This document shows positions 737 through 34,573 of a stretch of DNA of 64,000 nucleotides, piece after piece (within the stretch, counting starts at the first letter, position 1; each line of letters opens with the position of its first letter). The position numbers and the translations under genes are program-made. The stretch comes from Cyanophora paradoxa CCMP329 (lineage: Eukaryota > Plantae > Glaucophyta), in assembly GCA_004431415.1 (NCBI GenBank), contig QPMI01000039.1, positions 310,001 through 374,000 of the forward strand, read 5' to 3'. The notes under the pieces were generated by a model. It had not been told where the DNA came from and ran no database searches. It worked only from the letters and a program-made list of their open reading frames with translations.

Positions 737-807
737 ACACATAAAGATAAACGTATTTTTAACCCTCGCGTTCCGCTCAGGTTAAAAATACGTTTATCTT
801 TATGTGT
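737..807. repeat. Left terminal hairpin: 28-bp perfect stem, 15-nt loop
   Basis: ACACATAAAGATAAACGTATTTTTAACC (737-764), loop CTCGCGTTCCGCTCA, then GGTTAAAAATACGTTTATCTTTATGTGT (780-807). Confidence 0.95.
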
Positions 808-880
808 GTTAATACATATTTTATATAAATTTAACATGATATTATACATATTTATATGTAATTATCGATGTGAAAATGAT

Positions 881-975
881 AAATTCGATATAACCACGAT
901 TAAGTTTTATGCAAATTCGATATAATCACGATATATTTAATGTAAATCCGATATAATCCCGATTGCGTTTATCGT
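881..975 (+). repeat. Three ~31-32-bp iteron-like tandem repeats in the TIR (AAAT[T/C]CGATATAA[C/T]C[A/C]CGAT...)
   Basis: Units start at 881, 913 and 944; mirrored in the right TIR. Confidence 0.8.
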
Positions 976-1294
976 AAACAACTACAATTTACTGCGTGAT
1001 TCATTTAATGATAAGGTGGGGCGGTGGGGTCTGGTTGGGTCTGTTTTTCGAATTGCTATAAATTTCATGGCGTTCTAAATTTTTCTGAAAAGTGACCCCA
1101 CCACACCCCACCACCCCACCCTATCGATTAATTTATACTTCCACACTTAATTATATGGTAATTTCAATCTAATATATATCAATTTGAATAGTGGAATTGT
1201 TATGTGTTATGGTAATGGTTGGGTGTATGGTGGGGTGTAATCTCTTACGTAATTCAGTGTGGGAATCTCTACGATATAGAAGCGGAAATTAACA

Positions 1295-1361
1295 TGTAAA
1301 TACCGTTAGATCTGTACAGGTTGGGTGTAAATACCGTTAGATCTGTACAATGTGGGTGTAA
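1295..1361 (+). repeat. 31-bp tandem repeat x2 in the TIR (TGTAAATACCGTTAGATCTGTACA...)
   Basis: Units start at 1295 and 1326, with a partial third at 1357. Confidence 0.85.
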
Positions 1362-1904
1362 TCTCTCTCGTATTACAGTGTTAATACTAACATTTTATAT
1401 ATTTATCGATGCGGTGGGGCGGTGGGGTCTGGTGGGGCATGTTTTTGAAATTCATTATTTTTGGGGATCCGCTCAAAATTTTCTTGAAATTTGATCCCAC
1501 CACACCCCACCCTCCCACCCTATCCATTAATTCATACATCACACACTTATTTATATGGTAATTTCAATCTAATATATAGCAATTTGAAAAGTGGGAATGC
1601 TATAAATTATGGTAACGGTGGGGTGTAGGGTGGGGTGTCATTCCTTACTGATTCACGTAAGATTAACTCGGAAACCGCGCTACTCTATGCTTCTCCGCTC
1701 TCTCCAAACCGCTAAACATACACGTTACCCTCTCTTCTATCATCTCCTTTATTACTGATGTCTTACGCTCCGCTTCCGTATTCTTACCATCAATCGTGCG
1801 AAATTCAAAAAGTCCCGTGAGCAACCGAAAATGATTTAAGGAGAACGCGATACATTGGGGTAAGAAGAAAAATATTTTCTCTGTTTCAGATAAGTAAGGA
1901 TCAA

Positions 1905-2516
1905 ATGGCGGTTAATATTAATACGGATCGCATGGCTTACATGTTTAATGACCTCCCGATTTTCGATGAGGGTTTCGAGTCGACGCCGTTTCTTGCGGAA
2001 CTGTTCGATGTCATCTTCTCTATTGATAGTGAGCGAACGCTTTTCTCCTTTATCAACACTTTCTTCAAACCGGAAGACATTATATCTATTGGTTACTTCA
2101 TTGAAGAACCGCATAAGATTGTTATTCGTTCAACTGTTGGGTTTTCCTATGTTAAAATCCATGATTTCTCAATTAAGTATAGCATTGTCGACATTCATCC
2201 CGAAGATGAAGGTGGATATCAACAAATTGTGAATTTCTGGTCTCTTTACCGATGCACTCCGTACTCTCTTAATGATGTTATCAAAACCATAAAGCGTGTA
2301 CAATCTTTCAGACTTCTATATTTTAAGGTTGATCGCAATATGTCCGTTTATAATAAGAAGTTTGAAGAGCATGGCTTGAAGATTACACGTCGTGTTACAC
2401 TGCGGAAATTCTTGAAAGCCAACGGGGCTAAGTGGAGCCGCACCTTTAGAAAGTGGTATATTGAGGAAAACAACCAACTCATCGCTGATATCTTTTCAAT
2501 CGCTCCCCAACGCTAA
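1905..2516 (+). CDS. Viral hypothetical protein with a C-terminal DUF5710-like motif
   Basis: 203 aa; KFLKANGAKWSRTFRKWYI resembles the K.LGA.W...K.WY motif. Confidence 0.6.
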   Translation: MAVNINTDRMAYMFNDLPIFDEGFESTPFLAELFDVIFSIDSERTLFSFINTFFKPEDIISIGYFIEEPHKIVIRSTVGFSYVKIHDFSIKYSIVDIHPEDEGGYQQIVNFWSLYRCTPYSLNDVIKTIKRVQSFRLLYFKVDRNMSVYNKKFEEHGLKITRRVTLRKFLKANGAKWSRTFRKWYIEENNQLIADIFSIAPQR

Positions 2517-3407
2517 AACCTCCAACTGAAACGAATTATCTATACCGTTCATATCAACAAGATCACCGTAATAATCACGAAACTCAACCGTTAACTCACG
2601 AATAATAAGGTCCTTATCTGTTATTTTTACATACTCACTCACTTCTCCCGTGTGATAGATGTATTTCCCGATGTCCTGACTTAATTGTAATCGCAAAATC
2701 GCGCCTTGATTCTGCGGTTGTGATTGTGGGACAATATTATGGTTGGATGCAAACGGTGCAAGTTCTTTGATGTGCATGTATAAATACTGTTCAGCGTTCA
2801 TATCCGCCATCTTTGGACTAACTGCTTTGAACGCCATCGGTGCCGCTACTAATTCTGCTCCTTCAAATGTAACCCCCCATTGTGGGTGATCGGGTGTTAT
2901 TGGCGTTCCTGCATAAAATAAGATGTTTTCCGGAGCATATAAAGACCTGTTACCTTCCAATATTTGTTGCCCGCTAACTAATAGTTGGGTGGTACTGAGA
3001 CCAAGTAATTTTGCGATTCTATTGTTTGCTGCGATGAGTTCAAAAGGGAAATTACAATAAAACTCCAATTTGTATGTAGTTGGGTTATAATAAATCTTAA
3101 ACATTACATTCTCAGTAACGGCATAACTCAAACCGTAATTGTATGGTTGAGTCACTCCGAAATGCCCTTGATTGATATAACCACTCGGTAACGGGAAAAG
3201 TTGCTGATTTAAATAAACGCCATTGACATTATAACTTATGACAATATAATCGGTTCCTATCGAATTATAAATGCTGTTGGGAATCTCTGCATATATGACG
3301 CGACATTCTCGCGGTCTGGTTATTGGTGTTGTGAGTGCAACCTTGTATGAGTTTTCTTTTTGTCCAAATTGTCGATCTCTACTATCGACATTGACAAGTC
3401 GAATCAT
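2496..3407 (-). CDS. Minor capsid (penton, single jelly-roll) protein 1
   Basis: Likely start ATG 3407. N-terminal VNVDSRDR and AEIPNSIYN; C-terminal IRELTVEFRDYYGDLVDMNGIDNSFQLEV, typical of PLV/virophage/NCLDV pentons. Confidence 0.8.
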   Translation of the reverse strand: MIRLVNVDSRDRQFGQKENSYKVALTTPITRPRECRVIYAEIPNSIYNSIGTDYIVISYNVNGVYLNQQLFPLPSGYINQGHFGVTQPYNYGLSYAVTENVMFKIYYNPTTYKLEFYCNFPFELIAANNRIAKLLGLSTTQLLVSGQQILEGNRSLYAPENILFYAGTPITPDHPQWGVTFEGAELVAAPMAFKAVSPKMADMNAEQYLYMHIKELAPFASNHNIVPQSQPQNQGAILRLQLSQDIGKYIYHTGEVSEYVKITDKDLIIRELTVEFRDYYGDLVDMNGIDNSFQLEVLALGSD

Positions 3408-3435
3408 TTTATTATATGAATATAGATTAAAGAAA

Positions 3436-4446
3436 ATGCCCGTGGAATATGTTGAAGTGTCTTCATTCAAACAACTACCTAACCTTGATGCTCCAACATC
3501 GCAATTCATTGCCGATCTCCCTAAAACATTCGATGATGTGAGAGCGGTTCGACTTGTTTCGGCTGAGTTCTATAATTCCATTCCAATCATTAGCGGTGAT
3601 TCGGTCGCTGGTGATGCAACGGTAGAAGATGCCTTCACAATCAATTTCAGTATTGCAAACGCAAACATTAATTCTACAAAAGCACCCGCTCCTGGTTTTG
3701 ATGAGTGGCGAAATATTCGACCCGGTATTGGTCTTGGTCTGAACGTTATTAATACGCATCAAGAACTGGCGGATCGGATTACTGAACTATTCGCTGGAAA
3801 TACACCAAACCCAAATATAGTCTGCAAATGGGACGCTTCTAACAAGAGATTCATATTTCATGCTCCGCATCAATTCTATATTGCATTCGTGACAGATAAA
3901 GACCCAAAGGTATCCGGTGCCGAAGCGGGTAACCGTCGCGCTCGTGTTTTAGGTCTTGATGCCGGACGTAGAGGAAACCGATATATCAAATCGAGTGTTT
4001 ACACTGCTCAAACAGATCCCGTATTTACAGGTGCAAATGTACATGGGATCATTTCAACTTTCCCAACTGAAACGTGTAAGGATAATGTAATATTTGTGAG
4101 AGTAAAAGAACTTGGTGACCTCATCCAATGCGCCGATGGTCTTCTCACTGGATATTTTCATAAGTTGACTGTTCAAGATAAAAATTTCGCTGAACACATA
4201 ATATATAATTCGACGGAAGCAAACCCGCTGTATAAATACTATAATAAGAAAATGTCACTATCGCAACTGTCGGTAGATATAGTGAATTCTCAGAATCAAT
4301 TAATAGATTTCGAAGGTCAGCCTGTGCATCTGACATTCGAGATCCGCTATGGCGATGAACCCGCCGGTGATCCCGTTTATGAATATTTCAAAATGAGAAT
4401 GAGAGAAACCCACCCCTTCTATCCAAATATTGCCGGATTTGCGTAA
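3436..4446 (+). CDS. Minor capsid (penton) protein 2
   Basis: Likely start ATG 3436. LPKTFDDVRAVRLVSAEFYNS and C-terminal LSQLSVDIVNSQNQLIDFEGQPVHLTFEI follow the penton pattern. Confidence 0.78.
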   Translation: MPVEYVEVSSFKQLPNLDAPTSQFIADLPKTFDDVRAVRLVSAEFYNSIPIISGDSVAGDATVEDAFTINFSIANANINSTKAPAPGFDEWRNIRPGIGLGLNVINTHQELADRITELFAGNTPNPNIVCKWDASNKRFIFHAPHQFYIAFVTDKDPKVSGAEAGNRRARVLGLDAGRRGNRYIKSSVYTAQTDPVFTGANVHGIISTFPTETCKDNVIFVRVKELGDLIQCADGLLTGYFHKLTVQDKNFAEHIIYNSTEANPLYKYYNKKMSLSQLSVDIVNSQNQLIDFEGQPVHLTFEIRYGDEPAGDPVYEYFKMRMRETHPFYPNIAGFA

Positions 4447-4498
4447 ATTAAGGATCATTCACAGAATTTTTATATTTCTCTATTGTAAAAGAGAAATC

Positions 4499-5896
4499 AT
4501 GGATGTCACTACAACTCTTCAACGTCTTTCCCTCAAAGAGGCGCTAACCACGCCCGAAGAGGCAAAAGCGTTTTTCCTCGATAACTCGCTCATGCTCGGT
4601 CTGGAAGCGAAGACGAAACCCGTTCTCGTAACCGTTAGTCCATCAACAACCTACGATAACAACGTTGGTCAACGCGTTTCTTTCAAACTTCCCCGCTACA
4701 ATTTCATCGGTAAAATCGAACTCGCTTTTGATCTTCCCGAACTAACCGCTTTCGAAGGCGATACTGACCTTGTGCGAAACGGTTACACTCGCCCCGTCGG
4801 TTCGCTTGTGCAACGCCTTGAAATCTCTTACGGTTCTTACACTTTCCACGTCCCGTCAGATTTCCTGGCGATTTTCCCGCTGGTCTACTATTCAGAGGAT
4901 CAGTTGGCGAAAAAGAAGCGTTCTATGGGAATGCTCCACGGTATTCCCGCTCACGGAACCAACCGTAAAGGTGGCGCTTTCTTTGTTGAGATCCCGGTAC
5001 CGTGGTTAAACAGTTACCTACCACTCGGTGCGCTCTCGGGTGAGATGGTTGTTACTGTTTGGTTCAAAGAAGCTAACAAGGGTTACCTTGAAACTTCTTA
5101 TGGCGGTCGCGCTCTTCCGGTTGTTGGTGCTGCTGCGGATCAAACCGAAAATGATGGTCTCGGCTCAGCTACTGGTGTAACTCTTGCTAATGTTGGTCAA
5201 AACATCACCACTGGTACTATTACTGGGTTCGAAGTTGCTGGAACTATTCCACCAATGACCCATTACATCTCCATTAAGTCTCCTCGCCTTTACATGCATG
5301 CTATCAATGTTTCCGATGAACTGTTCGCTACGGTTATTGAGAAGGTCAAGACTACCGGTATGGCGATTCCATCACTCGACATTGGTTTCGTCGATGTCAC
5401 CGGTCTTGCTGCGAAAGGTAACACTCAACCCAACCGAATTAACCTTAGCCAAATCTCCGGTCTGGTTTATGCTCTTCTTGTCTCTGTCCGTGATGATGGA
5501 GGTATCGATTCTTCTAACGGTTCTCACAGCGTCCTTAAAACGCTTGCGAATGAGAAGGATATCACGATGACTTGTGAGATCAACGGACAGCGTCTTTATT
5601 CCACGGAGCCAATCCCGCTACTCAAAGGTGCGGAACTCATCGCCGATGCCTTCAAATGCTCGAACATGGACAAAGAAGCAAACCGTTACGTTCTTACAGG
5701 TCTACCTTTCTGCGCTGACGGTGAGAAGGCGATTCGCAATATCGCACAGAGTGGATATGTTGACCTTACGAACTCGTCGTCATCGTTCCTAACTCTGTAT
5801 CTCCCTGCCGATCGCACAATTACTGTTAACGTTCGCGCTCTCATGCACAGTTTCATAATTTGTGACCGCGATGGAATTCGTAGAATTAATATGTAA
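4499..5896 (+). CDS. Major capsid protein (double jelly-roll), copy 1
   Basis: 465 aa from ATG 4499. GQRVSFKLPRYNFIGKIELAFDLP, LVQRLEISYG and FVEIPVPWLNSYLPLGAL resemble DJR MCP motifs. Lies between the penton and ATPase genes. Confidence 0.85.
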   Translation: MDVTTTLQRLSLKEALTTPEEAKAFFLDNSLMLGLEAKTKPVLVTVSPSTTYDNNVGQRVSFKLPRYNFIGKIELAFDLPELTAFEGDTDLVRNGYTRPVGSLVQRLEISYGSYTFHVPSDFLAIFPLVYYSEDQLAKKKRSMGMLHGIPAHGTNRKGGAFFVEIPVPWLNSYLPLGALSGEMVVTVWFKEANKGYLETSYGGRALPVVGAAADQTENDGLGSATGVTLANVGQNITTGTITGFEVAGTIPPMTHYISIKSPRLYMHAINVSDELFATVIEKVKTTGMAIPSLDIGFVDVTGLAAKGNTQPNRINLSQISGLVYALLVSVRDDGGIDSSNGSHSVLKTLANEKDITMTCEINGQRLYSTEPIPLLKGAELIADAFKCSNMDKEANRYVLTGLPFCADGEKAIRNIAQSGYVDLTNSSSSFLTLYLPADRTITVNVRALMHSFIICDRDGIRRINM

Positions 5897-5956
5897 ACCA
5901 TTATTAGTAAGATATCGTTATTTTTATCTATCTTTATTAAGAAGATCTACAACACC

Positions 5957-6739
5957 ATGGATGATGTCCCCGAATTTAACGCTGGGGAAATGATAAAACC
6001 ACCTTTTCGCGTCCTCGCAATCGGAAAATCAGCTACGGGCAAGTCAGAAGCGGTAAAGTATTGGTTAAAGCAACTTCACGATGCAAAAAAGATAGATGTG
6101 GTTCTCGTTGTAAGTGGGACATCATTCAATCATTTTTGGAGAGAAGTTGCAACGTTGGAACTCGGTAAATGGGATGCGCCTTACATCGCTAAACTTCTCG
6201 ATGAAAGACAAGAGAAAATAGAGAAAGGAGAACCCGTTAACCAATTGTGTGTAGTTCTCGATGATCTTATAGATAATGAGATAGTCGATCTAACCCGCGA
6301 CAAAATAATTGGCTCTCTTTACAGTCGTGGGCGCCATTCGAAAATTTCGATTATTTGCATAACTCAGAAACTGCGTAAGGTTTCTTCAACCATTCGCGTT
6401 AATTCGGATTATGCGATGTTTCTTAGCGCCGCCAATCGCAAAGAACTGGAAGCGATTGAAGAAGAATACAATATTATGCGGGATAAAGACGCTTTCTATA
6501 AGATGTTTGAGGAGTATGTACATTCCTATCAGTTTCTCATATGGTCATCCGCTGATTATTCGGTAAAGTATTATGTAGATAAAGCGGAACTGGTTAAAAA
6601 CTTTGGATTCCCACGGTTTCATCGGAAGCCCAAAAAGAAAGAAGATGAATTACAACCGCCACAGAAAGAAGAAGCGCCAAAAGAGATTAAAAGCGCTGTT
6701 CATACTAATAAGTTGATGCGATATAAGAGTGGACTTTAA
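5957..6739 (+). CDS. A32-like (FtsK-HerA) genome packaging ATPase, copy 1
   Basis: Walker A GKSATGKS, Walker B VVLDD, and SRGRHSKISIICITQ. Confidence 0.92.
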   Translation: MDDVPEFNAGEMIKPPFRVLAIGKSATGKSEAVKYWLKQLHDAKKIDVVLVVSGTSFNHFWREVATLELGKWDAPYIAKLLDERQEKIEKGEPVNQLCVVLDDLIDNEIVDLTRDKIIGSLYSRGRHSKISIICITQKLRKVSSTIRVNSDYAMFLSAANRKELEAIEEEYNIMRDKDAFYKMFEEYVHSYQFLIWSSADYSVKYYVDKAELVKNFGFPRFHRKPKKKEDELQPPQKEEAPKEIKSAVHTNKLMRYKSGL

Positions 6740-6767
6740 AATTATCTTCATTATTATTAAAGATACA

Positions 6768-7451
6768 ATGCCGCCGAAACGTAGAGGTGTTCCCGCTGGT
6801 GCTATTTCATATTCTGGCGGTGAAAGTTATGGATCTCTCAATACTACACCAATGAAATTTGACGGAGTCAATCAAGTAAAAGCAACTCAACAAGAAGAAG
6901 ACCCTTTAAATGCCGCTTATGAAGAAGCGCCCGGCGATAAAGCGCCTCAAACATCACAAAGTGATCAGTTGAACATCTCCCCCGAAGTCTCGAAGATGAA
7001 GGCGGTCGGTGAAGGTGCGCGTCGGATTATCGGTGCTGCCGATGATCGTGAACTTGGTCTACAAGATCTTGCACTTGTCCGCAAAGGGCAAGGTGTTTCG
7101 AAAGAATCGGACAAAGTTATTCAATCGATGGCGGGTGAAGTAACTTACAAGGTTGCACCAACTCAAAACATCCACCGAATCCCGAAGGCTCAATGGGACG
7201 AAATGACCGCTAAACTAAAAGACCTTGAAGCAAAGTCAAGCGCGCTTGAACAGTATGTAACAGAGAAGAAAGAACGCGCTAAAATTAAGGAGATGCTGCG
7301 TAAAGAAGTTTTCCGAATGGGAATAACTGGTGTTCCCGATAAACAATTCATTGGTAAGAAGGAGACTCAAATTGATGAGCAAGCGGTAGATGAAATGAAG
7401 ACAAAGACACAAAAGGAACCATTGAACCTGGCGCAACCAAAGCGGAAGTAG
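6768..7451 (+). CDS. Viral hypothetical protein, copy 1 (C-terminus shifted by a 1-bp indel relative to copy 2)
   Basis: Starts MPPKRRG; charged, coiled-coil-like C-terminal half. Confidence 0.65.
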   Translation: MPPKRRGVPAGAISYSGGESYGSLNTTPMKFDGVNQVKATQQEEDPLNAAYEEAPGDKAPQTSQSDQLNISPEVSKMKAVGEGARRIIGAADDRELGLQDLALVRKGQGVSKESDKVIQSMAGEVTYKVAPTQNIHRIPKAQWDEMTAKLKDLEAKSSALEQYVTEKKERAKIKEMLRKEVFRMGITGVPDKQFIGKKETQIDEQAVDEMKTKTQKEPLNLAQPKRK

Positions 7452-7524
7452 AGAAAGCCGTAGCACCAACAGTATACAAGCGGAGAGTTTGGTTATAAAT
7501 ATATATCTTTTAAAGAGGAAATCA

Positions 7525-7773
7525 ATGGACTTTTTACAAAAGATCATAGAGATGTTTAATCTCCATGTGGTAAGCAACTGTCACAGTGGATGCTGTGATA
7601 CAACAGTAGAAGTAGGTTTCTCAGATACCGAAGATAATGTGACGGAAGGTAGAGGATCCCGGAGACATTCGGTAGACTCCACCCATTCAGAACCGGCTTC
7701 AAATGGTCGCCGGTTTTCCGTAGATCAAAGCGATGATTTACGAAGACAAGCGTTTGAACATCGCGGTAATTAA
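7525..7773 (+). CDS. Small viral protein with a CHSGCC motif, copy 1
   Basis: 82 aa from ATG 7525 after an AT-rich leader. Confidence 0.55.
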   Translation: MDFLQKIIEMFNLHVVSNCHSGCCDTTVEVGFSDTEDNVTEGRGSRRHSVDSTHSEPASNGRRFSVDQSDDLRRQAFEHRGN

Positions 7774-7975
7774 AATATTTGTAATAAGTATCGAATAATG
7801 CTTGAAGAAGTCTACAATATCATCTTAGCGAAACGTCAGATTTATGCCGTTAAATCTGCAATTGAAGAACGTAGACAGTAGCTTGTCCGGTCGCCAAAAA
7901 TTGACAACCCAAAAAGGATTTAAAGGTACTGCGATATTACACACTGATAAAATATTTTCTCTGCTTAAAATAAGG

Positions 7976-8239
7976 ATGGCTGCGTTTGCCGATGATGTTA
8001 GCGTTGTTGAACTTGAATTTGATAGCGACGAATCCATGGACTCTCCAACTGAGAAAACTAAAACAAGCGCTGACGGTATCAGTTATAGAATCCGTAAGAT
8101 CATTGCTCAACGCAATAGATATAATGAGGATGCGGAATATCGTGAACTGAAAAAGAAGAAGGTATTAGAAGCGTATTACCGACGTAAAGCGGAGGAGGGA
8201 ACCAATATGGGAAAGCGTGGAAGACCGCGCAAGTATTGA
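7976..8239 (+). CDS. Small basic protein with a C-terminal AT-hook, copy 1
   Basis: Ends KRGRPRKY; preceded by the AAAATATTTTCTCTG motif. Confidence 0.65.
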   Translation: MAAFADDVSVVELEFDSDESMDSPTEKTKTSADGISYRIRKIIAQRNRYNEDAEYRELKKKKVLEAYYRRKAEEGTNMGKRGRPRKY

Positions 8240-8452
8240 ATAGAAAACCCCCAATTGCCGCTGGACATCATTTCTTATTTTTCGAGCGGCTTACCGATTA
8301 TATTCGGTAATTCCGTTACCATTTCTCGATTGCCCCGATTTAATCGATTTAATTCCCGATACGGAGGAAAAAGTATTTAAAGACAAGGCGCCAAAAAATG
8401 ACAAGGAAGAAAAATATTTTCTCAACCTATTGTAGAAAAGAGAAAGTTGAAA

Positions 8453-10160
8453 ATGACCCCATCGGACAAGCTCGGCAATCTGCGCAAGTTTACCCCTGGA
8501 AAGGTAACATCTGGTATGTTTCTTAAAAATGTCAAAGCATCTCGAGATGCTGATAATCTCATGGAACTGGATGATGATGTTATTATTGATCGTATCAATA
8601 AGAGTTTGAAAAAACGACTGCATCCGACATGGGCTGAATGGCTCCAACTTGATCAGGTGACACGGGTTTATCTTGATCTCGATCGGTTCGTGGATTTGAA
8701 GCCCAACCTTGAAGACAACTACAAGGAAGCGGAAGAAACCGTTAGAGTATTGCGTGAGAAATTACATGATCTGACCGGCGCTACTATTGCTGTATCTGTT
8801 CGTCATCGTCGTGTTCGCCTTCTAAAAGAAGATGTTGACAAATTCAAGGTCTCTGCCCATTTCGTTTTCACTGATCTATGTTGTCGCCATGAAGATATCC
8901 CAAAACTCTTTACTGAAATGGGTCTTGAGAAAAATGTAGAATTTGACAGTGGAGTTTACGGTTCACCACAGAATCTTGTGTGTCTTGGATGCTGCAAGGG
9001 GGAAAAAGTAGATTTGGAGAACACTCGGGCGCGCGATATTGATAAGAACGTTCTATTTACTAAGTTTGTCGATTGCAAGGATATGCATGATAGTGATTTC
9101 TTCGTTCAATTTACCGATTGCCCCACATTGCTGGTGGACAAGACAAACTTTCACGTCTTCTCAGTGAACAAAACAGAGAAGAAGGAAGCGGAGCCGAAGA
9201 AGGAAGCCGAACCAAAGAAGGAAGCGAAGCCGAAGAAGGAAACCAAGAAAACCACTAAAAACGAAGCTGCGAAAGAAGAGGTTGAAGATGAAGAGAAAGG
9301 TGGAGAAATTACATTTGATCTTATGTACGGAGTTGTAATGGGTCTGAGTGCTGAACGCGCCGATACCTACAAATCCTGGATTGATACAGGTATTGCAATC
9401 ATCAATGCTTGCGAAGACAACAAGATACCACGTAAACAGCAATTTGAGATATTCCATGACTTCTCACAAAAAAGTGAAAAGTTTGATTACGACGAATGCA
9501 ATGACAAGTTCATGAGTCTTTGCAAAGGCAAGAAGATGGTGGAAGGCAAACGGCTAACGTACGGTTCGCTGGTCTATTGGTTGAAAAAGGATGATATCGA
9601 ACTTTATAATGAGTTGTTTCCCACCAAGTATGCATTCTTGCCCGAAGATTCCGACGACATTGATTATAAGACCGCAAAGATCCCACCAATCGTTGAGGAT
9701 TACGCTACGCATCGCCTTTACTTCAATGCGAGAATGCACCACATTGAAATGCTGGGTATTGTGATGCATTGGGATGAACAACAGCTTGCGTGGATCCCGA
9801 AAGATAGCCAAAAACTCGGCTCCAAACACTATCCACACCTGATGCATAAAATCGTTCTGAACAAGGAACCGAGAAGGAAGTTGAGAAATGGATTCCCTCA
9901 TTTCCGGAATGGATCAAAGACCCACAGGCGACACGTTCCATGTACGTGGATTTCCTCCCGCCTCCGGCTAAACTGAGCGCCAAATGCAAATCTGTGTTTA
10001 ATCTGTATCCTGGCTTTAAGATTGATCATGAGGTAGATGAAATCAAGGAATCACTACCGGAAGATGTGACCGAAGATATGATTAAGCCGTTTCTCACACA
10101 TCTTCACCTGATGTCGGGAGAAGACGATAACACATACCAATACCTTCTTAAATGGTTCGC
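8453..10160 (+). pseudogene. Truncated primase-helicase (copy 1), cut before Walker A by the duplication junction
   Basis: Matches 14742..16450 apart from a 1-bp indel near 9865, then switches to penton-2 sequence at 10161. Confidence 0.85.
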
Positions 10161-10789
10161 ATCAATTCTATATTGCATTCGTGACAGATAAAGACCCAAA
10201 GGTATCCGGTGCCGAAGCGGGTAACCGTCGCGCTCGTGTTTTAGGTCTTGATGCCGGACGTAGAGGAAACCGATATATCAAATCGAGTGTTTACACTGCT
10301 CAAACAGATCCCGTATTTACAGGTGCAAATGTACATGGGATCATTTCAACTTTCCCAACTGAAACGTGTAAGGATAATGTAATATTTGTGAGAGTAAAAG
10401 AACTTGGTGACCTCATCCAATGCGCCGATGGTCTTCTCACTGGATATTTTCATAAGTTGACTGTTCAAGATAAAAATTTCGCTGAACACATAATATATAA
10501 TTCGACGGAAGCAAACCCGCTGTATAAATACTATAATAAGAAAATGTCACTATCGCAACTGTCGGTAGATATAGTGAATTCTCAGAATCAATTAATAGAT
10601 TTCGAAGGTCAGCCTGTGCATCTGACATTCGAGATCCGCTATGGCGATGAACCCGCCGGTGATCCCGTTTATGAATATTTCAAAATGAGAATGAGAGAAA
10701 CCCACCCTTCTATCCAAATATTGCCGGATTTGCGTAAATTAAGGATCATTCACAGAATTTTTATATTTCTCTATTGTAAAAGAGAAATC

Positions 10790-12187
10790 ATGGATGTCAC
10801 TACAACTCTTCAACGTCTTTCCCTCAAAGAGGCGCTAACCACGCCCGAAGAGGCAAAAGCGTTTTTCCTCGATAACTCGCTCATGCTCGGTCTGGAAGCG
10901 AAGACGAAACCCGTTCTCGTAACCGTTAGTCCATCAACAACCTACGATAACAACGTTGGTCAACGCGTTTCTTTCAAACTTCCCCGCTACAATTTCATCG
11001 GTAAAATCGAACTCGCTTTTGATCTTCCCGAACTAACCGCTTTCGAAGGCGATACTGACCTTGTGCGAAACGGTTACACTCGCCCCGTCGGTTCGCTTGT
11101 GCAACGCCTTGAAATCTCTTACGGTTCTTACACTTTCCACGTCCCGTCAGATTTCCTGGCGATTTTCCCGCTGGTCTACTATTCAGAGGATCAGTTGGCG
11201 AAAAAGAAGCGTTCTATGGGAATGCTCCACGGTATTCCCGCTCACGGAACCAACCGTAAAGGTGGCGCTTTCTTTGTTGAGATCCCGGTACCGTGGTTAA
11301 ACAGTTACCTACCACTCGGTGCGCTCTCGGGTGAGATGGTTGTTACTGTTTGGTTCAAAGAAGCTAACAAGGGTTACCTTGAAACTTCTTATGGCGGTCG
11401 CGCTCTTCCGGTTGTTGGTGCTGCTGCGGATCAAACCGAAAATGATGGTCTCGGCTCAGCTACTGGTGTAACTCTTGCTAATGTTGGTCAAAACATCACC
11501 ACTGGTACTATTACTGGGTTCGAAGTTGCTGGAACTATTCCACCAATGACCCATTACATCTCCATTAAGTCTCCTCGCCTTTACATGCATGCTATCAATG
11601 TTTCCGATGAACTGTTCGCTACGGTTATTGAGAAGGTCAAGACTACCGGTATGGCGATTCCATCACTCGACATTGGTTTCGTCGATGTCACCGGTCTTGC
11701 TGCGAAAGGTAACACTCAACCCAACCGAATTAACCTTAGCCAAATCTCCGGTCTGGTTTATGCTCTTCTTGTCTCTGTCCGTGATGATGGAGGTATCGAT
11801 TCTTCTAACGGTTCTCACAGCGTCCTTAAAACGCTTGCGAATGAGAAGGATATCACGATGACTTGTGAGATCAACGGACAGCGTCTTTATTCCACGGAGC
11901 CAATCCCGCTACTCAAAGGTGCGGAACTCATCGCCGATGCCTTCAAATGCTCGAACATGGACAAAGAAGCAAACCGTTACGTTCTTACAGGTCTACCTTT
12001 CTGCGCTGACGGTGAGAAGGCGATTCGCAATATCGCACAGAGTGGATATGTTGACCTTACGAACTCGTCGTCATCGTTCCTAACTCTGTATCTCCCTGCC
12101 GATCGCACAATTACTGTTAACGTTCGCGCTCTCATGCACAGTTTCATAATTTGTGACCGCGATGGAATTCGTAGAATTAATATGTAA
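10790..12187 (+). CDS. Major capsid protein, copy 2
   Basis: Same translation as 4499..5896. Confidence 0.85.
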   Translation: MDVTTTLQRLSLKEALTTPEEAKAFFLDNSLMLGLEAKTKPVLVTVSPSTTYDNNVGQRVSFKLPRYNFIGKIELAFDLPELTAFEGDTDLVRNGYTRPVGSLVQRLEISYGSYTFHVPSDFLAIFPLVYYSEDQLAKKKRSMGMLHGIPAHGTNRKGGAFFVEIPVPWLNSYLPLGALSGEMVVTVWFKEANKGYLETSYGGRALPVVGAAADQTENDGLGSATGVTLANVGQNITTGTITGFEVAGTIPPMTHYISIKSPRLYMHAINVSDELFATVIEKVKTTGMAIPSLDIGFVDVTGLAAKGNTQPNRINLSQISGLVYALLVSVRDDGGIDSSNGSHSVLKTLANEKDITMTCEINGQRLYSTEPIPLLKGAELIADAFKCSNMDKEANRYVLTGLPFCADGEKAIRNIAQSGYVDLTNSSSSFLTLYLPADRTITVNVRALMHSFIICDRDGIRRINM

Positions 12188-12247
12188 ACCATTATTAGTA
12201 AGATATCGTTATTTTTATCTATCTTTATTAAGAAGATCTACAACACC

Positions 12248-13029
12248 ATGGATGATGTCCCCGAATTTAACGCTGGGGAAATGATAAAACCACCTTTTCG
12301 CGTCCTCGCAATCGGAAAATCAGCTACGGGCAAGTCAGAAGCGGTAAAGTATTGGTTAAAGCAACTTCACGATGCAAAAAAGATAGATGTGGTTCTCGTT
12401 GTAAGTGGGACATCATTCAATCATTTTGGAGAGAAGTTGCAACGTTGGAACTCGGTAAATGGGATGCGCCTTACATCGCTAAACTTCTCGATGAAAGACA
12501 AGAGAAAATAGAGAAAGGAGAACCCGTTAACCAATTGTGTGTAGTTCTCGATGATCTTATAGATAATGAGATAGTCGATCTAACCCGCGACAAAATAATT
12601 GGCTCTCTTTACAGTCGTGGGCGCCATTCGAAAATTTCGATTATTTGCATAACTCAGAAACTGCGTAAGGTTTCTTCAACCATTCGCGTTAATTCGGATT
12701 ATGCGATGTTTCTTAGCGCCGCCAATCGCAAAGAACTGGAAGCGATTGAAGAAGAATACAATATTATGCGGGATAAAGACGCTTTCTATAAGATGTTTGA
12801 GGAGTATGTACATTCCTATCAGTTTCTCATATGGTCATCCGCTGATTATTCGGTAAAGTATTATGTAGATAAAGCGGAACTGGTTAAAAACTTTGGATTC
12901 CCACGGTTTCATCGGAAGCCCAAAAAGAAAGAAGATGAATTACAACCGCCACAGAAAGAAGAAGCGCCAAAAGAGATTAAAAGCGCTGTTCATACTAATA
13001 AGTTGATGCGATATAAGAGTGGACTTTAA
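12248..13029 (+). CDS. Packaging ATPase, copy 2 (apparent 1-bp frameshift in a T run at ~12424)
   Basis: Split into ORFs 12248..12511 and 12352..13029; CATTTTGG here versus CATTTTTGG in copy 1. Confidence 0.8.
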
Positions 13030-13057
13030 AATTATCTTCATTATTATTAAAGATACA

Positions 13058-13789: not shown

Positions 13790-13815
13790 ATATATATCTT
13801 TTAAAGAGGAAATCA

Positions 13816-17387: not shown

Positions 17388-17392
17388 CAAAT

Positions 17393-30232: not shown

Positions 30233-31075
30233 ATGGGCGAATATAATCGAGTCCAATTACCAGTTTACGCATTGGGTGCGCCCGCGGTTCACTTTCGACA
30301 ACACGAGGTTGCCGACGAAATTCGCGGTGTGGAATCGACGGAACGCGCTAACTCCGCGAATGCATTTGATAAAAACAGCATGATACGTGTTAAAGAACTA
30401 CGCGCCGACAAGAATTCGGGAGTGGTTAAAACGACTCAACTTCTTGTAACAAATGCGAATTTTAACGCGGGAATCGGGCAACCTGACGCATGGGGTGTGG
30501 ATATTAGAACGTTAGATTTTGACGGAGAACGTGCCGCCGCTGTTGTCCGATCGGGAGGCGCTGTTATTGGCGGTGGTTGTCGTGTGTCGGGTATGCTTGC
30601 ATCCTCCGTTGCTGTTACCGATATTCCCGATACTCTACCTGAACATGCGGACAATCCGCAACGTATCCGTATGTACACTCCATGTGGAGACTATCCTTAC
30701 GTGTTTGGAATGGTCAGAGTTGGGGTAGATAACGTAAATGCAACACAACCCGATGGAATTATGGGAAATTGGTTATTACCAAATATTGCTATTCCTAAAT
30801 CTATTGAGTCTATATGTCGTTCACAAAATGGTATTATCGGACCGGCTTATACTTTCTTTGTTCAGGGAATCGGACGCGGTAGAGGTTGGGTGGAATTCGA
30901 CAACCAGAACCCCGCTACGTTTAATGTTTGGACAACAGAAGTAGGAGGTTACGATATTCTCATTTTCGGAATGCGAACAGATCCAGCCGCTGTGGCGGCT
31001 ACACGTGGTCTCAATCCCGATAACAACCTAAATAACTTCTACGATGATCCGTTCCCAGGTGATCCCACACCATAA
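30233..31075 (+). CDS. Fibre/spike-like protein, paralogue A
   Basis: Shares ESTE.A, KELR.DKN.G.VKTT.LLVTNANFNA and RSGGA.IG.G.RV.G with the next ORF. Confidence 0.65.
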   Translation: MGEYNRVQLPVYALGAPAVHFRQHEVADEIRGVESTERANSANAFDKNSMIRVKELRADKNSGVVKTTQLLVTNANFNAGIGQPDAWGVDIRTLDFDGERAAAVVRSGGAVIGGGCRVSGMLASSVAVTDIPDTLPEHADNPQRIRMYTPCGDYPYVFGMVRVGVDNVNATQPDGIMGNWLLPNIAIPKSIESICRSQNGIIGPAYTFFVQGIGRGRGWVEFDNQNPATFNVWTTEVGGYDILIFGMRTDPAAVAATRGLNPDNNLNNFYDDPFPGDPTP

Positions 31076-31094
31076 TTATGTTTTAATATATTAA

Positions 31095-31940
31095 ATGGCG
31101 GCACCCGCTCCACCCGAGCGTATCTTAACAGCGCAACTTTCATTAGCCGCGCCGGCAAATCACGTATTACAACATGCTGTTATCGATAATGTCGATGGTC
31201 TCGAATCTACCGAACTTGCACCTACTCTTAATACTTTTGGTGATACGCATAAATTGCGACTGAAAGAGTTACGATGTGACAAAAATAACGGAATTGTGAA
31301 AACTACGAAACTTCTTGTTACAAATGCAAACTTTAACGCTTTTTATGGAGATCCCGATAGTTATAATGATGATAACAAGGTTACTAACTTTGCTTATGAA
31401 TCGAGAAACGGAGCAATTAAATGTAGATCGGGTGGCGCTTATATTGGGGACGGACTAAGGGTCGGTGGTATCATCGGAGCGCCTCTAATCGTAAATGACC
31501 AACCAAACCCCGATGATGAAAACACACGTATTAGGACGTATTGCCCAGGTATGAATGAACCTTACCTAATTAAGATTTATACAATCGTTATTAGTTTACA
31601 GACAGCGGTAGCCGATGTTTTAGAACCGTTAGGAAATCATTATAGATATAGAGACACGATACCAGAGGACATTTACGCATTATGTAGAAGAACCGACGGA
31701 GCAAGACCACGCCTAACGATACATATTATCCCCATAGATAATTTCGGTCAAGCGTTTCACTCAATACCTCTTTTAGATACACAAGATAACCAATTTATAA
31801 TAAGAGCTACACAACTTGGAAATTATCGAGTCATTATGTATGCCGAAAGAAACGACGCAATCGCAACAGCTAACCGATTCGGTCAATATCTTAATACCAA
31901 TCTATACAATCCCGTCGGCGGTAGCGATCCACAACCATAA
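31095..31940 (+). CDS. Fibre/spike-like protein, paralogue B
   Basis: Paralogue of 30233..31075 with a diverged C-terminal half ending ...YAERND. Confidence 0.65.
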   Translation: MAAPAPPERILTAQLSLAAPANHVLQHAVIDNVDGLESTELAPTLNTFGDTHKLRLKELRCDKNNGIVKTTKLLVTNANFNAFYGDPDSYNDDNKVTNFAYESRNGAIKCRSGGAYIGDGLRVGGIIGAPLIVNDQPNPDDENTRIRTYCPGMNEPYLIKIYTIVISLQTAVADVLEPLGNHYRYRDTIPEDIYALCRRTDGARPRLTIHIIPIDNFGQAFHSIPLLDTQDNQFIIRATQLGNYRVIMYAERNDAIATANRFGQYLNTNLYNPVGGSDPQP

Positions 31941-31960
31941 ATCTAAGGTATATATAGGGA

Positions 31961-32233
31961 ATGGATGAAAAAACAAGAAAGTTTATAGATACCGCTATGT
32001 CAGTCCATGGTAAGGATAAATTTGATTATAGCGACACTGTTTATAAGAAAGCGCAAGAAAAGGTATCTGTTAGATGCCTACAATGTAATAAAGTCTTTCA
32101 GACGTACGGATTTAATCACATTAAGGGGTCAGGATGTAGACAGTGTTCTAAGAAACACTCACATGCATACAGAAAAAAGACTACATGGGGAATAGTAATA
32201 GAAGAGAAGCCAATTATGTTGTACTTTGATTGA
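31961..32233 (+). CDS. DUF723-like zinc-ribbon protein (no nuclease domain)
   Basis: KFIDTAMSVHGKDKFDYSDTVY...CLQC...NHIKGSGCRQC. Confidence 0.7.
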   Translation: MDEKTRKFIDTAMSVHGKDKFDYSDTVYKKAQEKVSVRCLQCNKVFQTYGFNHIKGSGCRQCSKKHSHAYRKKTTWGIVIEEKPIMLYFD

Positions 32234-33029
32234 TTTCGTAGTTAGTCATAATGAGATGGTTCCTTTTCTTTTTTGATATACCATACACTTTACCATATGT
32301 ATGTCGAATAAAGGGTTTAAATAGCAATTTCATTAATAAAGCATCATTAACAACCATCATAACTTTGCATTTCGCGGTCTTCAATAGATCTTCTAAATCC
32401 AAAAAGAATTTTTCCAAATCGAATTCTACATTTTCGTAAAAGTCATTATTGCTATTAACGTATGGAGGATCAAGAAATATGAATGCATCCTCATCATCTT
32501 TGTATTTCAACACAATATCCCGATAATCCCCAAGAGATAAGTTAACATCTTGTAGGAAATCATCGTAAGGTATCTTCTTTTTAAGAGTTGTATATGCACT
32601 CAACTTCACGTTCCGTTTTTTGAAATCACGGAGGGTTTTAACATTTAAAACGCTGTTTTTAAGAAGATAGAAATGATGGGCTAAGTAATCCATTACATCT
32701 TTACGATCATGTTGTAGAAAACTCTTATAAACTTCTTTATGCTCTTCTATATTGCTTACTGCTTCGAACTGTTGAAGACTATCTAAAAGTTTTACTTTAC
32801 TGTTAGGGTCTTTCATTGTATTCAAAAAAAGTATATGTGTTTCGTCGTTATCATTCATAAAGTAATCAAAACGTTCTTTATGCTTTTCCCAAAGATAGAA
32901 ACTAAATGCACCTGAACCACAAAATGGTTCTATTATTTTATTTATGCCTTCTAAATCGATAAAAGGATTGATTGTATCCATTTCATTGTATTTATTACCG
33001 ACATACTTATGGTAAAAGTGAGTCTTCAT
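32214..33029 (-). CDS. Dam-like (D12 class) DNA N6-adenine methyltransferase
   Basis: YVGNK, motif I IEPFCGSGA, MND, and motif IV FIFLDPPY. Confidence 0.9.
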   Translation of the reverse strand: MKTHFYHKYVGNKYNEMDTINPFIDLEGINKIIEPFCGSGAFSFYLWEKHKERFDYFMNDNDETHILFLNTMKDPNSKVKLLDSLQQFEAVSNIEEHKEVYKSFLQHDRKDVMDYLAHHFYLLKNSVLNVKTLRDFKKRNVKLSAYTTLKKKIPYDDFLQDVNLSLGDYRDIVLKYKDDEDAFIFLDPPYVNSNNDFYENVEFDLEKFFLDLEDLLKTAKCKVMMVVNDALLMKLLFKPFIRHTYGKVYGISKKKRNHLIMTNYEINQSTT

Positions 33030-33248
33030 TTACCATAGATAAAGAAAAACAAATTACATATGGAGACGGGATAAAGAAATTAAGACTTTACCAGTCTTGT
33101 TTCTTGTAATAATGCAAGTATCAAAGCAACTTGGACATGTTTTATGATAATATACCATTATGATATCGACAAGTTCATATGGGAATACTTTTGCTAAGAT
33201 GGTTCGCATCTTACCAATTGTTTTTTAATTTTTCTATATAATTCATAA

Positions 33249-33647
33249 ATGAATCATCGCGGCTTCCATGTAATGTTAGATTACAAGTTCAACCATCCAT
33301 TAATGATAGGATTGGACAACTTAGAGACCACAACGAAGTGGTTAATGCAATTTTTTCAATCTATTATTCAAGAACAAGGTATCAGAGTAGTACACAAGCA
33401 CTGCGAGATTTTCGATGGTGGTCTTTCACCTCCGGGTTTTGCTATGGTTCTTCTCCTTGATGAGAGTCATTTAACCGCTCATTGTTACTCAGATCAGGGA
33501 ATGTTAGCAATCGATATATTCACTTGTGGTACGGAAGCGGAGCGTAAGACATCAGTAATAAAGGAGATGATAGAAGAGAGGGTAACGTGTATGTTTAGCG
33601 GTTTGGAGAGAGCGGAGAAGCATAGAGTAGCGCGGTTTCCGAGTTAA
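33249..33647 (+). CDS. speD: Prokaryotic-type (class 1) pyruvoyl-dependent S-adenosylmethionine decarboxylase proenzyme
   Basis: GFHVMLD...GFAMVLLLDESHLTAHCYSDQGMLAIDIFTCG, with the ES self-cleavage site and the DxFTCG signature. Confidence 0.87.
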   Translation: MNHRGFHVMLDYKFNHPLMIGLDNLETTTKWLMQFFQSIIQEQGIRVVHKHCEIFDGGLSPPGFAMVLLLDESHLTAHCYSDQGMLAIDIFTCGTEAERKTSVIKEMIEERVTCMFSGLERAEKHRVARFPS

Positions 33648-34573
33648 TCTTACGTGAATCAGTAAGGAATGACACCCCACCCTACACCCCACCGTTACCA
33701 TAATTTATAGCATTCCCACTTTTCAAATTGCTATATATTAGATTGAAATTACCATATAAATAAGTGTGTGATGTATGAATTAATGGATAGGGTGGGAGGG
33801 TGGGGTGTGGTGGGGTCAAATTTCAAGAAAATTTTGAGCGGATCCCCAAAAATAATGAATTTCAAAAACATGCCCCACCAGACCCCACCGCCCCACCGCA
33901 TCGATAAATATATAAAATGTTAGTATTAACACTGTAATACGAGAGAGATTACACCCACATTGTACAGATCTAACGGTATTTACACCCAACCTGTACAGAT
34001 CTAACGGTATTTACATGTTAATTTCCGCTTCTATATCGTAGAGATTCCCACACTGAATTACGTAAGAGATTACACCCCACCATACACCCAACCATTACCA
34101 TAACACATAACAATTCCACTATTCAAATTGATATATATTAGATTGAAATTACCATATAATTAAGTGTGGAAGTATAAATTAATCGATAGGGTGGGGTGGT
34201 GGGGTGTGGTGGGGTCACTTTTCAGAAAAATTTAGAACGCCATGAAATTTATAGCAATTCGAAAAACAGACCCAACCAGACCCCACCGCCCCACCTTATC
34301 ATTAAATGAATCACGCAGTAAATTGTAGTTGTTTACGATAAACGCAATCGGGATTATATCGGATTTACATTAAATATATCGTGATTATATCGAATTTGCA
34401 TAAAACTTAATCGTGGTTATATCGAATTTATCATTTTCACATCGATAATTACATATAAATATGTATAATATCATGTTAAATTTATATAAAATATGTATTA
34501 ACACACATAAAGATAAACGTATTTTTAACCTGAGCGGAACGCGAGGGTTAAAAATACGTTTATCTTTATGTGT
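33530..34573 (-). repeat. Right terminal inverted repeat (1,044 bp)
   Basis: Starts TACGGAAGCGGAGCG at 33530 and ends ...TATCTTTATGTGT at 34573. Confidence 0.95.
34503..34573. repeat. Right terminal hairpin: 28-bp perfect stem, 15-nt loop
   Basis: Arms at 34503-34530 and 34546-34573, loop TGAGCGGAACGCGAG. Confidence 0.95.

What the first reader, a model, noticed from the sequence alone, without database searches (positions are those of the whole stretch)
737..34573. Intact, recently integrated Polinton-like virus with an unusual gene set
Seen: near-identical 1,044-bp TIRs, a perfect 6-bp TSD, and at least one intact copy of every core gene. Established: canonical Polintons combine pPolB, RVE integrase, ATPase, capsids and an adenain protease, and end in 5'-AG...CT-3'. 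This element ends AC...GT and has no recognisable adenain. It carries both pPolB and an AEP primase-helicase, two pentons, an MCP with NCLDV-like motifs, and metabolic/epigenetic cargo. Inference: a potentially reactivatable virus from a poorly described lineage, about 27.5 kb without the duplication.
Basis: partly seen in the sequence, partly recalled or inferred. Interest (0 to 1): 0.8.

Follow-up and report, generated by a model that had tools for sequence, protein, structure and literature searches.

The report
Algal provirus with proofreading-dead polymerase
This is a real, nearly intact DNA virus of about 27.5 kb inserted in the genome of what is likely the freshwater alga Cyanophora; its family is already listed in published tables, but its DNA polymerase lacks the proofreading residues and likely relies on the virus's own helicase to copy the genome.

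Summary
The element is real. It has 1,044-bp TIRs with one mismatch, a CGGCGC target duplication, AC...GT ends and 40% GC against a 64% flank. The 6.3-kb duplication is probably an assembly artefact: 4 of 4 short-read contig sets show no junction.

It is a multi-copy polinton-like provirus, likely of Cyanophora paradoxa, and less novel than claimed. Its capsid family is in Bellas 2023 Table S2. Bulzu 2025 Table S6 already tallies the 'unusual' set across 156 glaucophyte elements: no protease, integrase 85, lipase 89, AdoMetDC 66. pPolB plus primase-helicase also occurs in mavirus-like virophages.

New here: the pPolB keeps its terminal-protein domain, a vOTU protease with both catalytic residues and the polymerase motifs, but has lost the exonuclease motifs and about 93 residues. 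One 44%-identical relative shares this; 119 others do not. This likely explains the helicase, as in mavirus. Both ends carry 28-30-bp hairpins, and a TIR-like cassette precedes pPolB.

Pentons, class placement and reactivation are untested. Earlier scan notes describe sibling elements in this genome, one with terminal hairpins.

The parts
731..736 (.). 6-bp target-site duplication CGGCGC (left)
737..1780 (+). Left TIR, 1,044 bp; contains two ~400-bp internal repeats with CCCCACC boxes
737..807 (.). Terminal palindrome adjacent to the TSD (28-30-bp stem hairpin, -29.4 kcal/mol, z -13, 0 of 200 shuffles as stable); mirrored at 34503-34573
1905..2516 (+). 203-aa orphan ORF (one Cys; 6 of 9 family variants synonymous)
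2496..3410 (-). Putative minor capsid (penton) 1, about 304 aa from the second ATG; identity not confirmed
   Evidence: motif recalled
3436..4446 (+). Putative minor capsid (penton) 2, about 336 aa; identity not confirmed; 16 of 24 family variants synonymous
4499..5896 (+). [quoted passage not shown]
5957..6739 (+). A32-like packaging ATPase, 260 aa (second copy frameshifted at 12423)
3866..16450 (+). 6.3-kb tandem duplication (3866-10160 and 10158-16450), 3-nt microhomology at the joint, six homopolymer indels; probably an assembly artefact
13058..13789 (+). 243-aa charged orphan protein without Cys (copy at 6768 frameshifted); 82-aa and 131-aa orphans follow (7525-7773, 7844-8239 and their copies)
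14742..17387 (+). AEP primase - PriCT-2 - SF3 helicase (D5-like), 881 aa, motifs intact; 10 of 11 family variants synonymous
17374..17634 (+). Internal TIR-like cassette (199 of 279 columns identical to 33652-33918; score 232 vs shuffle maximum 49) ending about 25 bp before the pPolB start
17658..20939 (+). pPolB, 1,093 aa: terminal-protein domain (86-206), vOTU (214-345, C235/H336), degraded exonuclease with EndoVII-like insert and ~93-aa deletion, intact palm (D693, K847, D946, D948)
21125..22423 (+). RVE (DDE) integrase, 432 aa
22420..23979 (-). Patatin-like phospholipase with F5/8 C-type domain, 519 aa
24029..29884 (+). 1,951-aa fibre protein with C-terminal Peptidase_S74 chaperone and internal 36-bp repeats
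30233..31940 (+). Two paralogous 280/281-aa proteins (36% identical, E 4e-46), likely fibre-like (recalled resemblance)
31961..32233 (+). 90-aa zinc-finger / homing-endonuclease DNA-binding fragment
32214..33029 (-). D12-class N6-adenine DNA methyltransferase (DPPY motif)
33249..33647 (+). Class 1b AdoMetDC-like pyruvoyl decarboxylase (ESH self-cleavage motif); its 3' end lies inside the right TIR
33530..34573 (-). Right TIR
34574..34579 (.). Target-site duplication CGGCGC (right)

Best explanation
This is an integrase-inserted provirus of a multi-copy polinton-like virus family, likely of the glaucophyte Cyanophora, whose protein-primed polymerase lacks its proofreading residues and likely depends on the co-encoded SF3 helicase to unwind DNA. 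Shown: a DDE integrase and 6-bp TSD; a pPolB with terminal-protein, vOTU and palm residues kept and exonuclease motifs lost; an intact AEP-SF3 helicase gene under purifying selection; capsid and packaging genes. Inferred: after excision (TIR panhandle or terminal hairpins) the linear genome is copied from a terminal-protein primer released by the vOTU. The helicase opens the duplex because the exonuclease domain, which forms part of the strand-displacement tunnel in phi29 polymerase, is truncated. The AEP may prime or restart the displaced strand. Genomes are packaged by the A32 ATPase into a double jelly-roll capsid without a maturation protease and enter cells with the fibres and phospholipase. 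The same pairing (exonuclease-reduced pPolB, SF3 helicase, RVE) in mavirus would then be convergence. The 6.3-kb duplication is likely not in the real genome.
For: TIR, TSD and GC step. Family in several copies: the TIR-start contig is at depth 495/147/150 against flank contigs at 114/17/38 in 3 runs, though depth is not a copy count. 44 of 61 listed coding variants among family contigs are synonymous and none is a stop, including 10 of 11 in the helicase. pPolB: ExoI Asp is replaced (K421) and the ExoII/III residues are absent in the window and P0002. 119 of 119 other hits keep ExoI D/E and ExoIII Y/D, and 118 of 119 keep ExoII D. The exonuclease spacer is 21 aa against 109-163 aa in the 111 hits where it could be measured. 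The AF2 model (pLDDT 85.8) matches phi29 polymerase (Z 19.9, residues 413-1072), little-finger-type terminal-protein folds (Z 8.6-9.2) and OTU domains (11 of 50 rows, best Z 7.4). The two exonuclease-dead enzymes form one long branch (SH-aLRT 100, 49 rows, quick tree). Literature passages: mavirus pPolB lost most of its exonuclease, and Tlr1-like enzymes lack it and carry a helicase (PMC11161782; PMC13215967); low-GC EMALEs encode pPolB plus primase/helicase (PMC8547959); the phi29 exonuclease domain lines the unwinding tunnel (PMC4974454). Host: P0001 is named Cyanophora paradoxa and is row 106 of Bellas 2023 Table S2.
Against: No biochemistry. The model still predicts a folded exonuclease-like core, so the unwinding tunnel may survive, and the model was built from intact relatives. 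Only one relative shares the loss and its genomic context is unknown, so helicase co-occurrence rests on one element. Terminal palindromes are reported to go mainly with non-pPolB replicases (bioRxiv 2026.07.28.741278), which favours hairpin priming by the AEP. The TIR-like cassette between helicase and pPolB could mark a chimera of two elements. In yeast Pol epsilon, removing exonuclease activity enables strand displacement (abstract start, PMC5041465). The variant list covers only the best-supported rows the tool printed. Logan contigs drop rare forms, so a duplication private to this copy is not excluded. Pentons are unconfirmed.
Confidence: 0.55

Rival explanations
1. Replicase turnover caught mid-way: the AEP-SF3 enzyme is the working replicase, priming at the terminal hairpins, and the pPolB-integrase-lipase-fibre block was joined on at the internal TIR-like cassette. 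The two replicases are then redundant and not co-dependent.
For: A TIR-like cassette lies exactly between helicase and pPolB. Hairpins are reported mainly with non-pPolB replicases, and double replicases are read as transient states. Replication modules swap often among PLVs.
Against: pPolB keeps all palm, vOTU and terminal-protein features and 5 of 7 variants are synonymous. The exonuclease loss is shared with a relative only 44% identical, so it is old and tolerated. The cassette sits like a promoter just upstream of pPolB.
Confidence: 0.27
2. The provirus is a helper-dependent, virophage-like element that replicates only in the factory of a giant virus, borrowing proofreading or unwinding from it; its NCLDV-like capsid and AdoMetDC would reflect that association.
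For: Several PLV isolates depend on giant viruses. Class 1b AdoMetDCs occur in Algavirales. Mavirus has the same replication pairing. No transcription genes were found among the 19 ORFs.
Against: No helper is known from these data. A lack of transcription genes fits nuclear replication equally well. This reading is compatible with the best explanation at the enzyme level.
Confidence: 0.3
3. A decaying relic: the exonuclease loss and the frameshifts are neutral damage in a dead insertion.
For: Six frameshifting or intergenic indels and a duplication in the assembly.
Against: The indels are all in homopolymers and are contradicted by short-read contigs at both sites tested. All ORFs outside the duplication are open. 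The TIRs differ at 1 of 1,044 bases. The exonuclease loss is shared with a distant relative. Variants are 72% synonymous.
Confidence: 0.06

Closest known systems
Cyanophora paradoxa EVEs catalogued by Bellas et al. 2023 (PMC10120064, Tables S2, S4) and tallied by Bulzu et al. 2025 (PMC12220804, Table S6)
   Same: Same MCP family: P0001 is Table S2 row 106, and a 465-aa entry (row 107) starts with the same 36 residues as this MCP, compared by eye. 366 MCP hits in two 'new' clusters. Of 156 glaucophyte EVEs: proteases 0, rve 85, lipase 89, AdoMet_dc 66, S74 37, Dam 10, PriCT_2 15, A32 139 (columns matched by me).
   Different: Those papers do not name or describe the lineage in the main text (0 hits for Cyanophora in Bellas 2023; 0 for Glaucocysto and AdoMet in Bulzu 2025). 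In the passages seen they say nothing on the exonuclease loss, hairpins or internal cassette.
Mavirus and low-GC EMALEs (Virophaviricetes)
   Same: Exonuclease-reduced pPolB with TP and vOTU, separate primase/helicase, RVE integrase, TIRs, 5-6-bp TSD, low GC in a high-GC host.
   Different: The pPolB here is closest to adintovirus-type polymerases with an EndoVII insert. There is no maturation protease, the capsid is NCLDV-like rather than virophage-like, and the genome is larger with fibres, lipase, Dam and AdoMetDC.
Maverick-Polintons / adintoviruses (Polintoviricetes)
   Same: TP-vOTU-palm pPolB of the same sequence family (about 30% over the full alignment), RVE, A32 ATPase, TIRs, 6-bp TSD.
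   Different: No adenain, AC...GT ends, degraded exonuclease (conserved in Polinton pPolBs, bioRxiv 2023.08.22.554363), orphan capsid.
NCLDV-related PLVs (Zephyr, Zora, VC134, VC218; Bellas and Sommaruga bioRxiv 2026.06.19.733378) and OmPLV (PMC12721341)
   Same: 20-30 kb, NCLDV-like capsid module, pPolB or primase-SF3 replicases, RVE, large lipase ORFs.
   Different: No Mriya48, HUH or VLTF detected here (not specifically testable). Zephyr has no endogenous examples.
Halocafeteria seosinensis endogenous virophages and PLVs (bioRxiv 2026.07.28.741278)
   Same: [quoted passage not shown]
   Different: There the palindromes go mainly with non-pPolB replicases, and the double-replicase cases are virophages.

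Membership tests
Polintoviricetes (Maverick-Polintons) | Protein-primed PolB with TP and vOTU | tested here: met
   the exonuclease is degraded
Polintoviricetes (Maverick-Polintons) | RVE integrase, TIRs, 6-bp TSD | tested here: met
Polintoviricetes (Maverick-Polintons) | Adenain/Ulp1 maturation protease | tested here: not met
   No hit in Pfam, PHROGs or NCBIfam for 19 ORFs. No orphan ORF has an adenain-type His plus Gln-x-Cys-Gly arrangement; the 243- and 131-aa ORFs have no Cys. The 203-aa ORF (one Cys) was not folded.
Polintoviricetes (Maverick-Polintons) | 5'-AG...CT-3' termini (convention recalled; my search found no paper) | tested here: not met
   ends are AC...GT
Polintoviricetes (Maverick-Polintons) | MCP and ATPase in the Polinton clade | tested here: inconclusive
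   No Polinton MCP among homologues. The published MCP-POL model counts 2 of 156 glaucophyte EVEs. No reference set for a tree.
Polinton-like viruses, broad sense | DJR MCP plus A32 ATPase in a 15-40-kb TIR-flanked genome | tested here: met
   ATPase; MCP through P0001 and its published HHpred hit; own fold search weak (Z 4.7 poxvirus scaffold, 4.1 PBCV-1)
Polinton-like viruses, broad sense | [quoted passage not shown] | tested here: inconclusive
   Two candidates by position and recalled motif; mutual BLAST E 0.027; no family or PDB match
Aquintoviricetes | Reduced morphogenetic module without protease | tested here: met
Aquintoviricetes | MCP/ATPase within TSV, Gezel, Trimcap or related clusters | not testable with these tools
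   Group HMMs lie in closed bioRxiv supplements; only 2 MCP and 1 ATPase homologues were retrieved
NCLDV-related PLVs / Mriyaviricetes | Capsid nearest to Nucleocytoviricota MCPs | tested here: inconclusive
   Published HHpred hits of family members are iridovirus and Pyramimonas virus MCPs, 92-98%. The same paper notes that most PLV MCPs resemble NCLDV capsids structurally, so this does not discriminate.
NCLDV-related PLVs / Mriyaviricetes | Mriya48, HUH endonuclease, VLTF2/3 | tested here: inconclusive
   No HUH or VLTF Pfam hit; no Mriya48 model available; several orphans remain
Virophaviricetes (mavirus-like) | Virophage-type MCP and maturation protease | tested here: not met
   No protease; no virophage MCP among homologues or PDB sequence hits. 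It works like mavirus in its replication module but is not a member.
Any active virus | Expression, excision, virions | not testable with these tools
   No RNA holder listed

The most novel reading that the evidence does not exclude
A glaucophyte-specific virus lineage that fits none of the named PLV groups, the first described in detail for this Archaeplastida branch. It independently evolved an error-prone, helicase-dependent protein-primed polymerase. It uses its own AdoMet decarboxylase, carried by 66 of 156 glaucophyte EVEs, to lower SAM and raise dcSAM and so blunt host methylation silencing of the provirus, as geminiviruses do by stabilising host SAMDC (PMC13761869). It can still be induced from a model alga.
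Probability: 0.2. Interest if true: 0.78.

Novelty: new variant of a known kind. Interest (0 to 1): 0.48.

Why it matters
If the polymerase reading holds, loss of proofreading paired with gain of a helicase has happened in mavirus, in Tlr1-like enzymes and here. That would turn the often-noted 'two replicases' of some polinton-like viruses from a transient state into a functional partnership, and would predict a high mutation rate for a 27-kb DNA virus. The element is an intact, multi-copy provirus in a likely cultured model alga, so induction, virion structure without a maturation protease, and the role of viral AdoMetDC (polyamines versus anti-silencing) can be tested directly. The family's existence and gene inventory are already in published supplements, which caps the surprise.

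Tried and rejected
No whole genome is held for this window, so no genome-wide copy search was possible. 8 of 8 viral-contig scans (MCP, MCP pair, ATPase, ATPase pair, pPolB pair, integrase, penton 1, helicase) found no relative; these scans reach close relatives only. The metagenome scan with the MCP pair found none. The pPolB scan gave 5 loci that match only pPolB; L002, the one locus spanning the whole polymerase, is a broken ordinary pPolB with exonuclease motifs kept. The AF2 model of the MCP was poor (pLDDT 37); Foldseek on it gave nothing at E 0.001 or below and VIA only Z under 5. PDB sequence searches for MCP, penton 1 and ATPase were empty or irrelevant; penton 2 gave a short match to a designed protein that I discount. 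The ESM Atlas gave no result for the MCP or its two homologues. Expression: no RNA holder listed; one guessed RNA run held three short pieces 90-95% alike, which is no evidence either way. The left flank contigs reach only 29-30 bases into the TIR, under the tool's 31-base rule for bridging, so the junction is not formally bridged. The right junction and an empty site were not tested in reads. No CpG depletion in element or host (1.17 and 1.16), so there is no sign of 5mC-driven decay, which gives the anti-silencing idea no support. Pfam found nothing useful in 10 flank ORFs. The paper search for AdoMetDC with polinton gave 0 papers; Cyanophora or glaucophyte with polinton terms gave 5, 1 and 6 papers, and the three I opened do not describe this lineage. 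Rejected: 'no protease at all' (a vOTU is present); 'unusual gene set' (tabulated); 'decaying relic'. Complex prediction was not used because no binding claim is made.

Full report
1. Observation. The inverted repeats run 737-1780 and 33530-34573 (1,044 bp, one mismatch at 1495) and are flanked by CGGCGC on both sides; the ends read AC...GT. The element is 40.0% GC, the left flank 56.4% and the right flank 63.8%. Nineteen ORFs cover about 24.2 of the 27.5 kb single unit. Pfam, PHROGs and NCBIfam identify an A32 ATPase, an AEP-PriCT2-SF3 helicase, an rve integrase, patatin with F5/8, an S74 fibre, a D12 adenine methylase and an AdoMetDC; catalytic motifs are in the sequence. None of the 19 matches adenain or Ulp1.

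2. The duplication. Copies 3866-10160 and 10158-16450 differ inside by six single-base indels, each in a homopolymer run, and meet at a 3-nt microhomology. Laying short-read contigs on 9700-10850 gave, in 4 of 4 runs, loose ends at 10158-10161 that continue as the single-copy sequence and no listed contig across the joint. The base missing at 9864 is carried by all covering depth in 3 runs and most in the fourth; the one at 10704 by part of the depth in all 4. So these two indels are most likely long-read errors, and the duplication is probably an assembly artefact (my odds about 65%). The table left out 219 pieces and such contigs drop rare forms, so a duplication private to this copy remains possible.

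3. A living family. Twenty runs of one organism hold the stretch 16500-24000. Flank contigs identical to 1-765 end 29-30 bases inside the TIR in 3 of 3 DNA-type runs (2012, 2019, 2024). The contig that starts at base 737 is 4 to 9 times deeper than the flank (495/114, 147/17, 150/38), and hundreds of variant contigs cover the element; depth is not a copy count. Of the 61 distinct coding variants that the two tables printed, 44 are synonymous and none is a stop (10 of 11 in the helicase, 5 of 7 in pPolB, 16 of 24 in penton 2). These are the best-supported rows only; 767 further rows were not shown.

4. Host and prior cataloguing. The MCP has one homologue in the word-indexed search (P0001, 57%) and two among 1.84 billion representatives (P0001 60%, P0123 36%). 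P0001 is a Cyanophora paradoxa protein, so the host is likely this glaucophyte; earlier scan notes say the same (unchecked). Bellas et al. 2023 (PMC10120064; passages, section 9 and supplement rows read) list P0001 in Table S2 with an HHpred hit to an iridovirus MCP (98.47%), next to a 465-aa Cyanophora MCP whose first 36 residues match this one by eye. Table S4 gives 366 MCP hits in two clusters marked 'new' (272 and 94); I could not tell which holds this MCP. Bulzu et al. 2025 (PMC12220804; passages and Table S6 read) tally 156 glaucophyte EVEs: all nine protease columns 0, A32 139, rve 85, lipases 89, AdoMet_dc 66, S74 37, DNA_pol_B_2 49, PriCT_2 15, Dam 10 (columns matched by me). The 'unusual gene set' is thus the family's tabulated set. 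Neither main text discusses it. The 2026 PLV framework preprint (parts 1-4 of 5 read) did not come up in searches for Cyanophora or glaucophytes with polinton terms.

5. The polymerase. Its relatives are adintovirus-type pPolBs with an EndoVII insert (1,099 hits; best 120 listed). One, P0002, is 44% identical over the full length. In the alignment of all 120, OTU Cys235 and His336 and palm residues D693, K847, D946 and D948 are kept. ExoI Asp is Lys here and Gln in P0002, and ExoII and ExoIII are unrecognisable in both. 119 of 119 others keep ExoI D/E and ExoIII Y/D, and 118 of 119 keep ExoII D. The stretch holding the KGxYPY motif is 21 residues in both against 109-163 in the 111 others where it could be measured. 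The AF2 model (pLDDT 85.8) matches phi29 polymerase (Foldseek E 5e-18; VIA Z 19.9), Y-family little-finger domains at 86-206 (Z 8.6-9.2) and OTU domains at 214-345 (11 of 50 rows, best Z 7.4, middling alone). This is the TP-vOTU-Exo-Palm plan of Krupovic et al. 2024 (PMC11161782, passages). A quick tree of the palm-onward part (window plus 48 of 120 hits) joins the two exonuclease-dead enzymes on a long branch (SH-aLRT 100; midpoint root only). So a cysteine protease domain is present, though not a capsid-maturation one, and the loss of proofreading is old rather than decay. Exonuclease motifs are reported as conserved across Polinton pPolBs (bioRxiv 2023.08.22.554363, passages). My search for an inactivated exonuclease in Polinton pPolBs led to mavirus and Tlr1-like cases only.

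6. How it likely works. Shown: integrase plus 6-bp TSD, intact capsid-packaging genes, two replication genes under selection, and terminal hairpins (z about -13, 0 of 200 shuffles). Inferred: in phi29 polymerase the exonuclease domain helps form the tunnel that forces strand displacement without a helicase (PMC4974454, passages). A polymerase that has lost about 93 residues of this domain likely needs a helicase, and the neighbouring SF3 enzyme would supply it. Mavirus pairs an exonuclease-reduced pPolB with a primase/helicase and RVE, and Tlr1-like enzymes lack the exonuclease and carry an SF1 helicase, so this would be a further, likely independent, case. Against: the model still folds an exonuclease-like core; the context of P0002 is unknown; Pol epsilon gains strand displacement when its exonuclease is removed (abstract start); and terminal palindromes are reported mainly with non-pPolB replicases (bioRxiv 2026.07.28.741278, passages). 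A 260-bp TIR-like cassette between helicase and pPolB (199 of 279 columns, score 232 against shuffle maximum 49) may be a promoter or the scar of a chimera. I give co-dependence 0.55 and turnover in progress 0.27; helper dependence on a giant virus (0.3) is a separate question.

7. Cargo. The AdoMetDC is class 1b with the ESH motif. Such enzymes are active in two algal giant viruses, but some phage homologues decarboxylate ornithine or arginine instead (PMC9992855, passages), so the substrate is open. dcSAM inhibits DNA methyltransferases and a geminivirus protein exploits this (PMC13761869, passages), so anti-silencing is a testable idea. It has no support here: CpG is not depleted, and the element's own Dam would need SAM.

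8. Classification. It works like a PLV with a mavirus-like replication module. It is not a canonical Polinton (no adenain, AC...GT ends) and not a virophage. Whether it belongs to Aquintoviricetes or the NCLDV-related PLVs could not be tested: too few homologues, poor MCP model (pLDDT 37; best Z 4.7), closed HMM supplements. The pentons remain unconfirmed.

9. Verdict. A real, essentially intact provirus; the family and gene inventory are already catalogued; the exonuclease-dead polymerase, hairpins and internal cassette are additions. New variant of a known kind, interest 0.48.

Noticed in passing
window 33530-33647 and 1663-1780: The TIR has absorbed the last ~39 codons of the AdoMetDC gene, so the left TIR carries an orphan copy of its 3' end; this suggests TIR expansion by end-to-end copying.
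   Followed up: partly
window 17374-17634, 1016-1130, 1415-1530: A bidirectional unit of CCCCACC boxes around an A/T spacer occurs twice in each TIR and once just upstream of pPolB; candidate promoter or origin.
   Followed up: partly
window 307-736 and 34580-34690: The insertion interrupts a possible ~180-codon acidic, proline/serine-rich reading frame in flanks of 56-60% GC, lower than the host DNA further right; the target may itself be a mobile element or small gene. No Pfam hit.
   Followed up: partly
window 1852-2520: Family contigs in 3 runs skip 504 and 90 bases here, so some copies lack or replace the 203-aa ORF region.
   Followed up: no
window 40145-42700 (-): Intron-rich host gene whose fragments look like a tRNA pseudouridine synthase (recalled motifs; Pfam on unspliced frames found nothing).
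   Followed up: partly
window 48300-49200 and 52700-53500: GC-rich 40-bp minisatellite and 197-bp tandem repeats in host DNA.
   Followed up: no
window 55957-56856: 53-bp inverted repeats 794 bp apart, 91% complementary: a probable MITE.
   Followed up: no
PMC12220804 Table S6: AdoMet_dc also occurs in cryptophyte PLVs (10 of 177, 17 of 57, 45 of 706) yet is not discussed in the main text.
   Followed up: no
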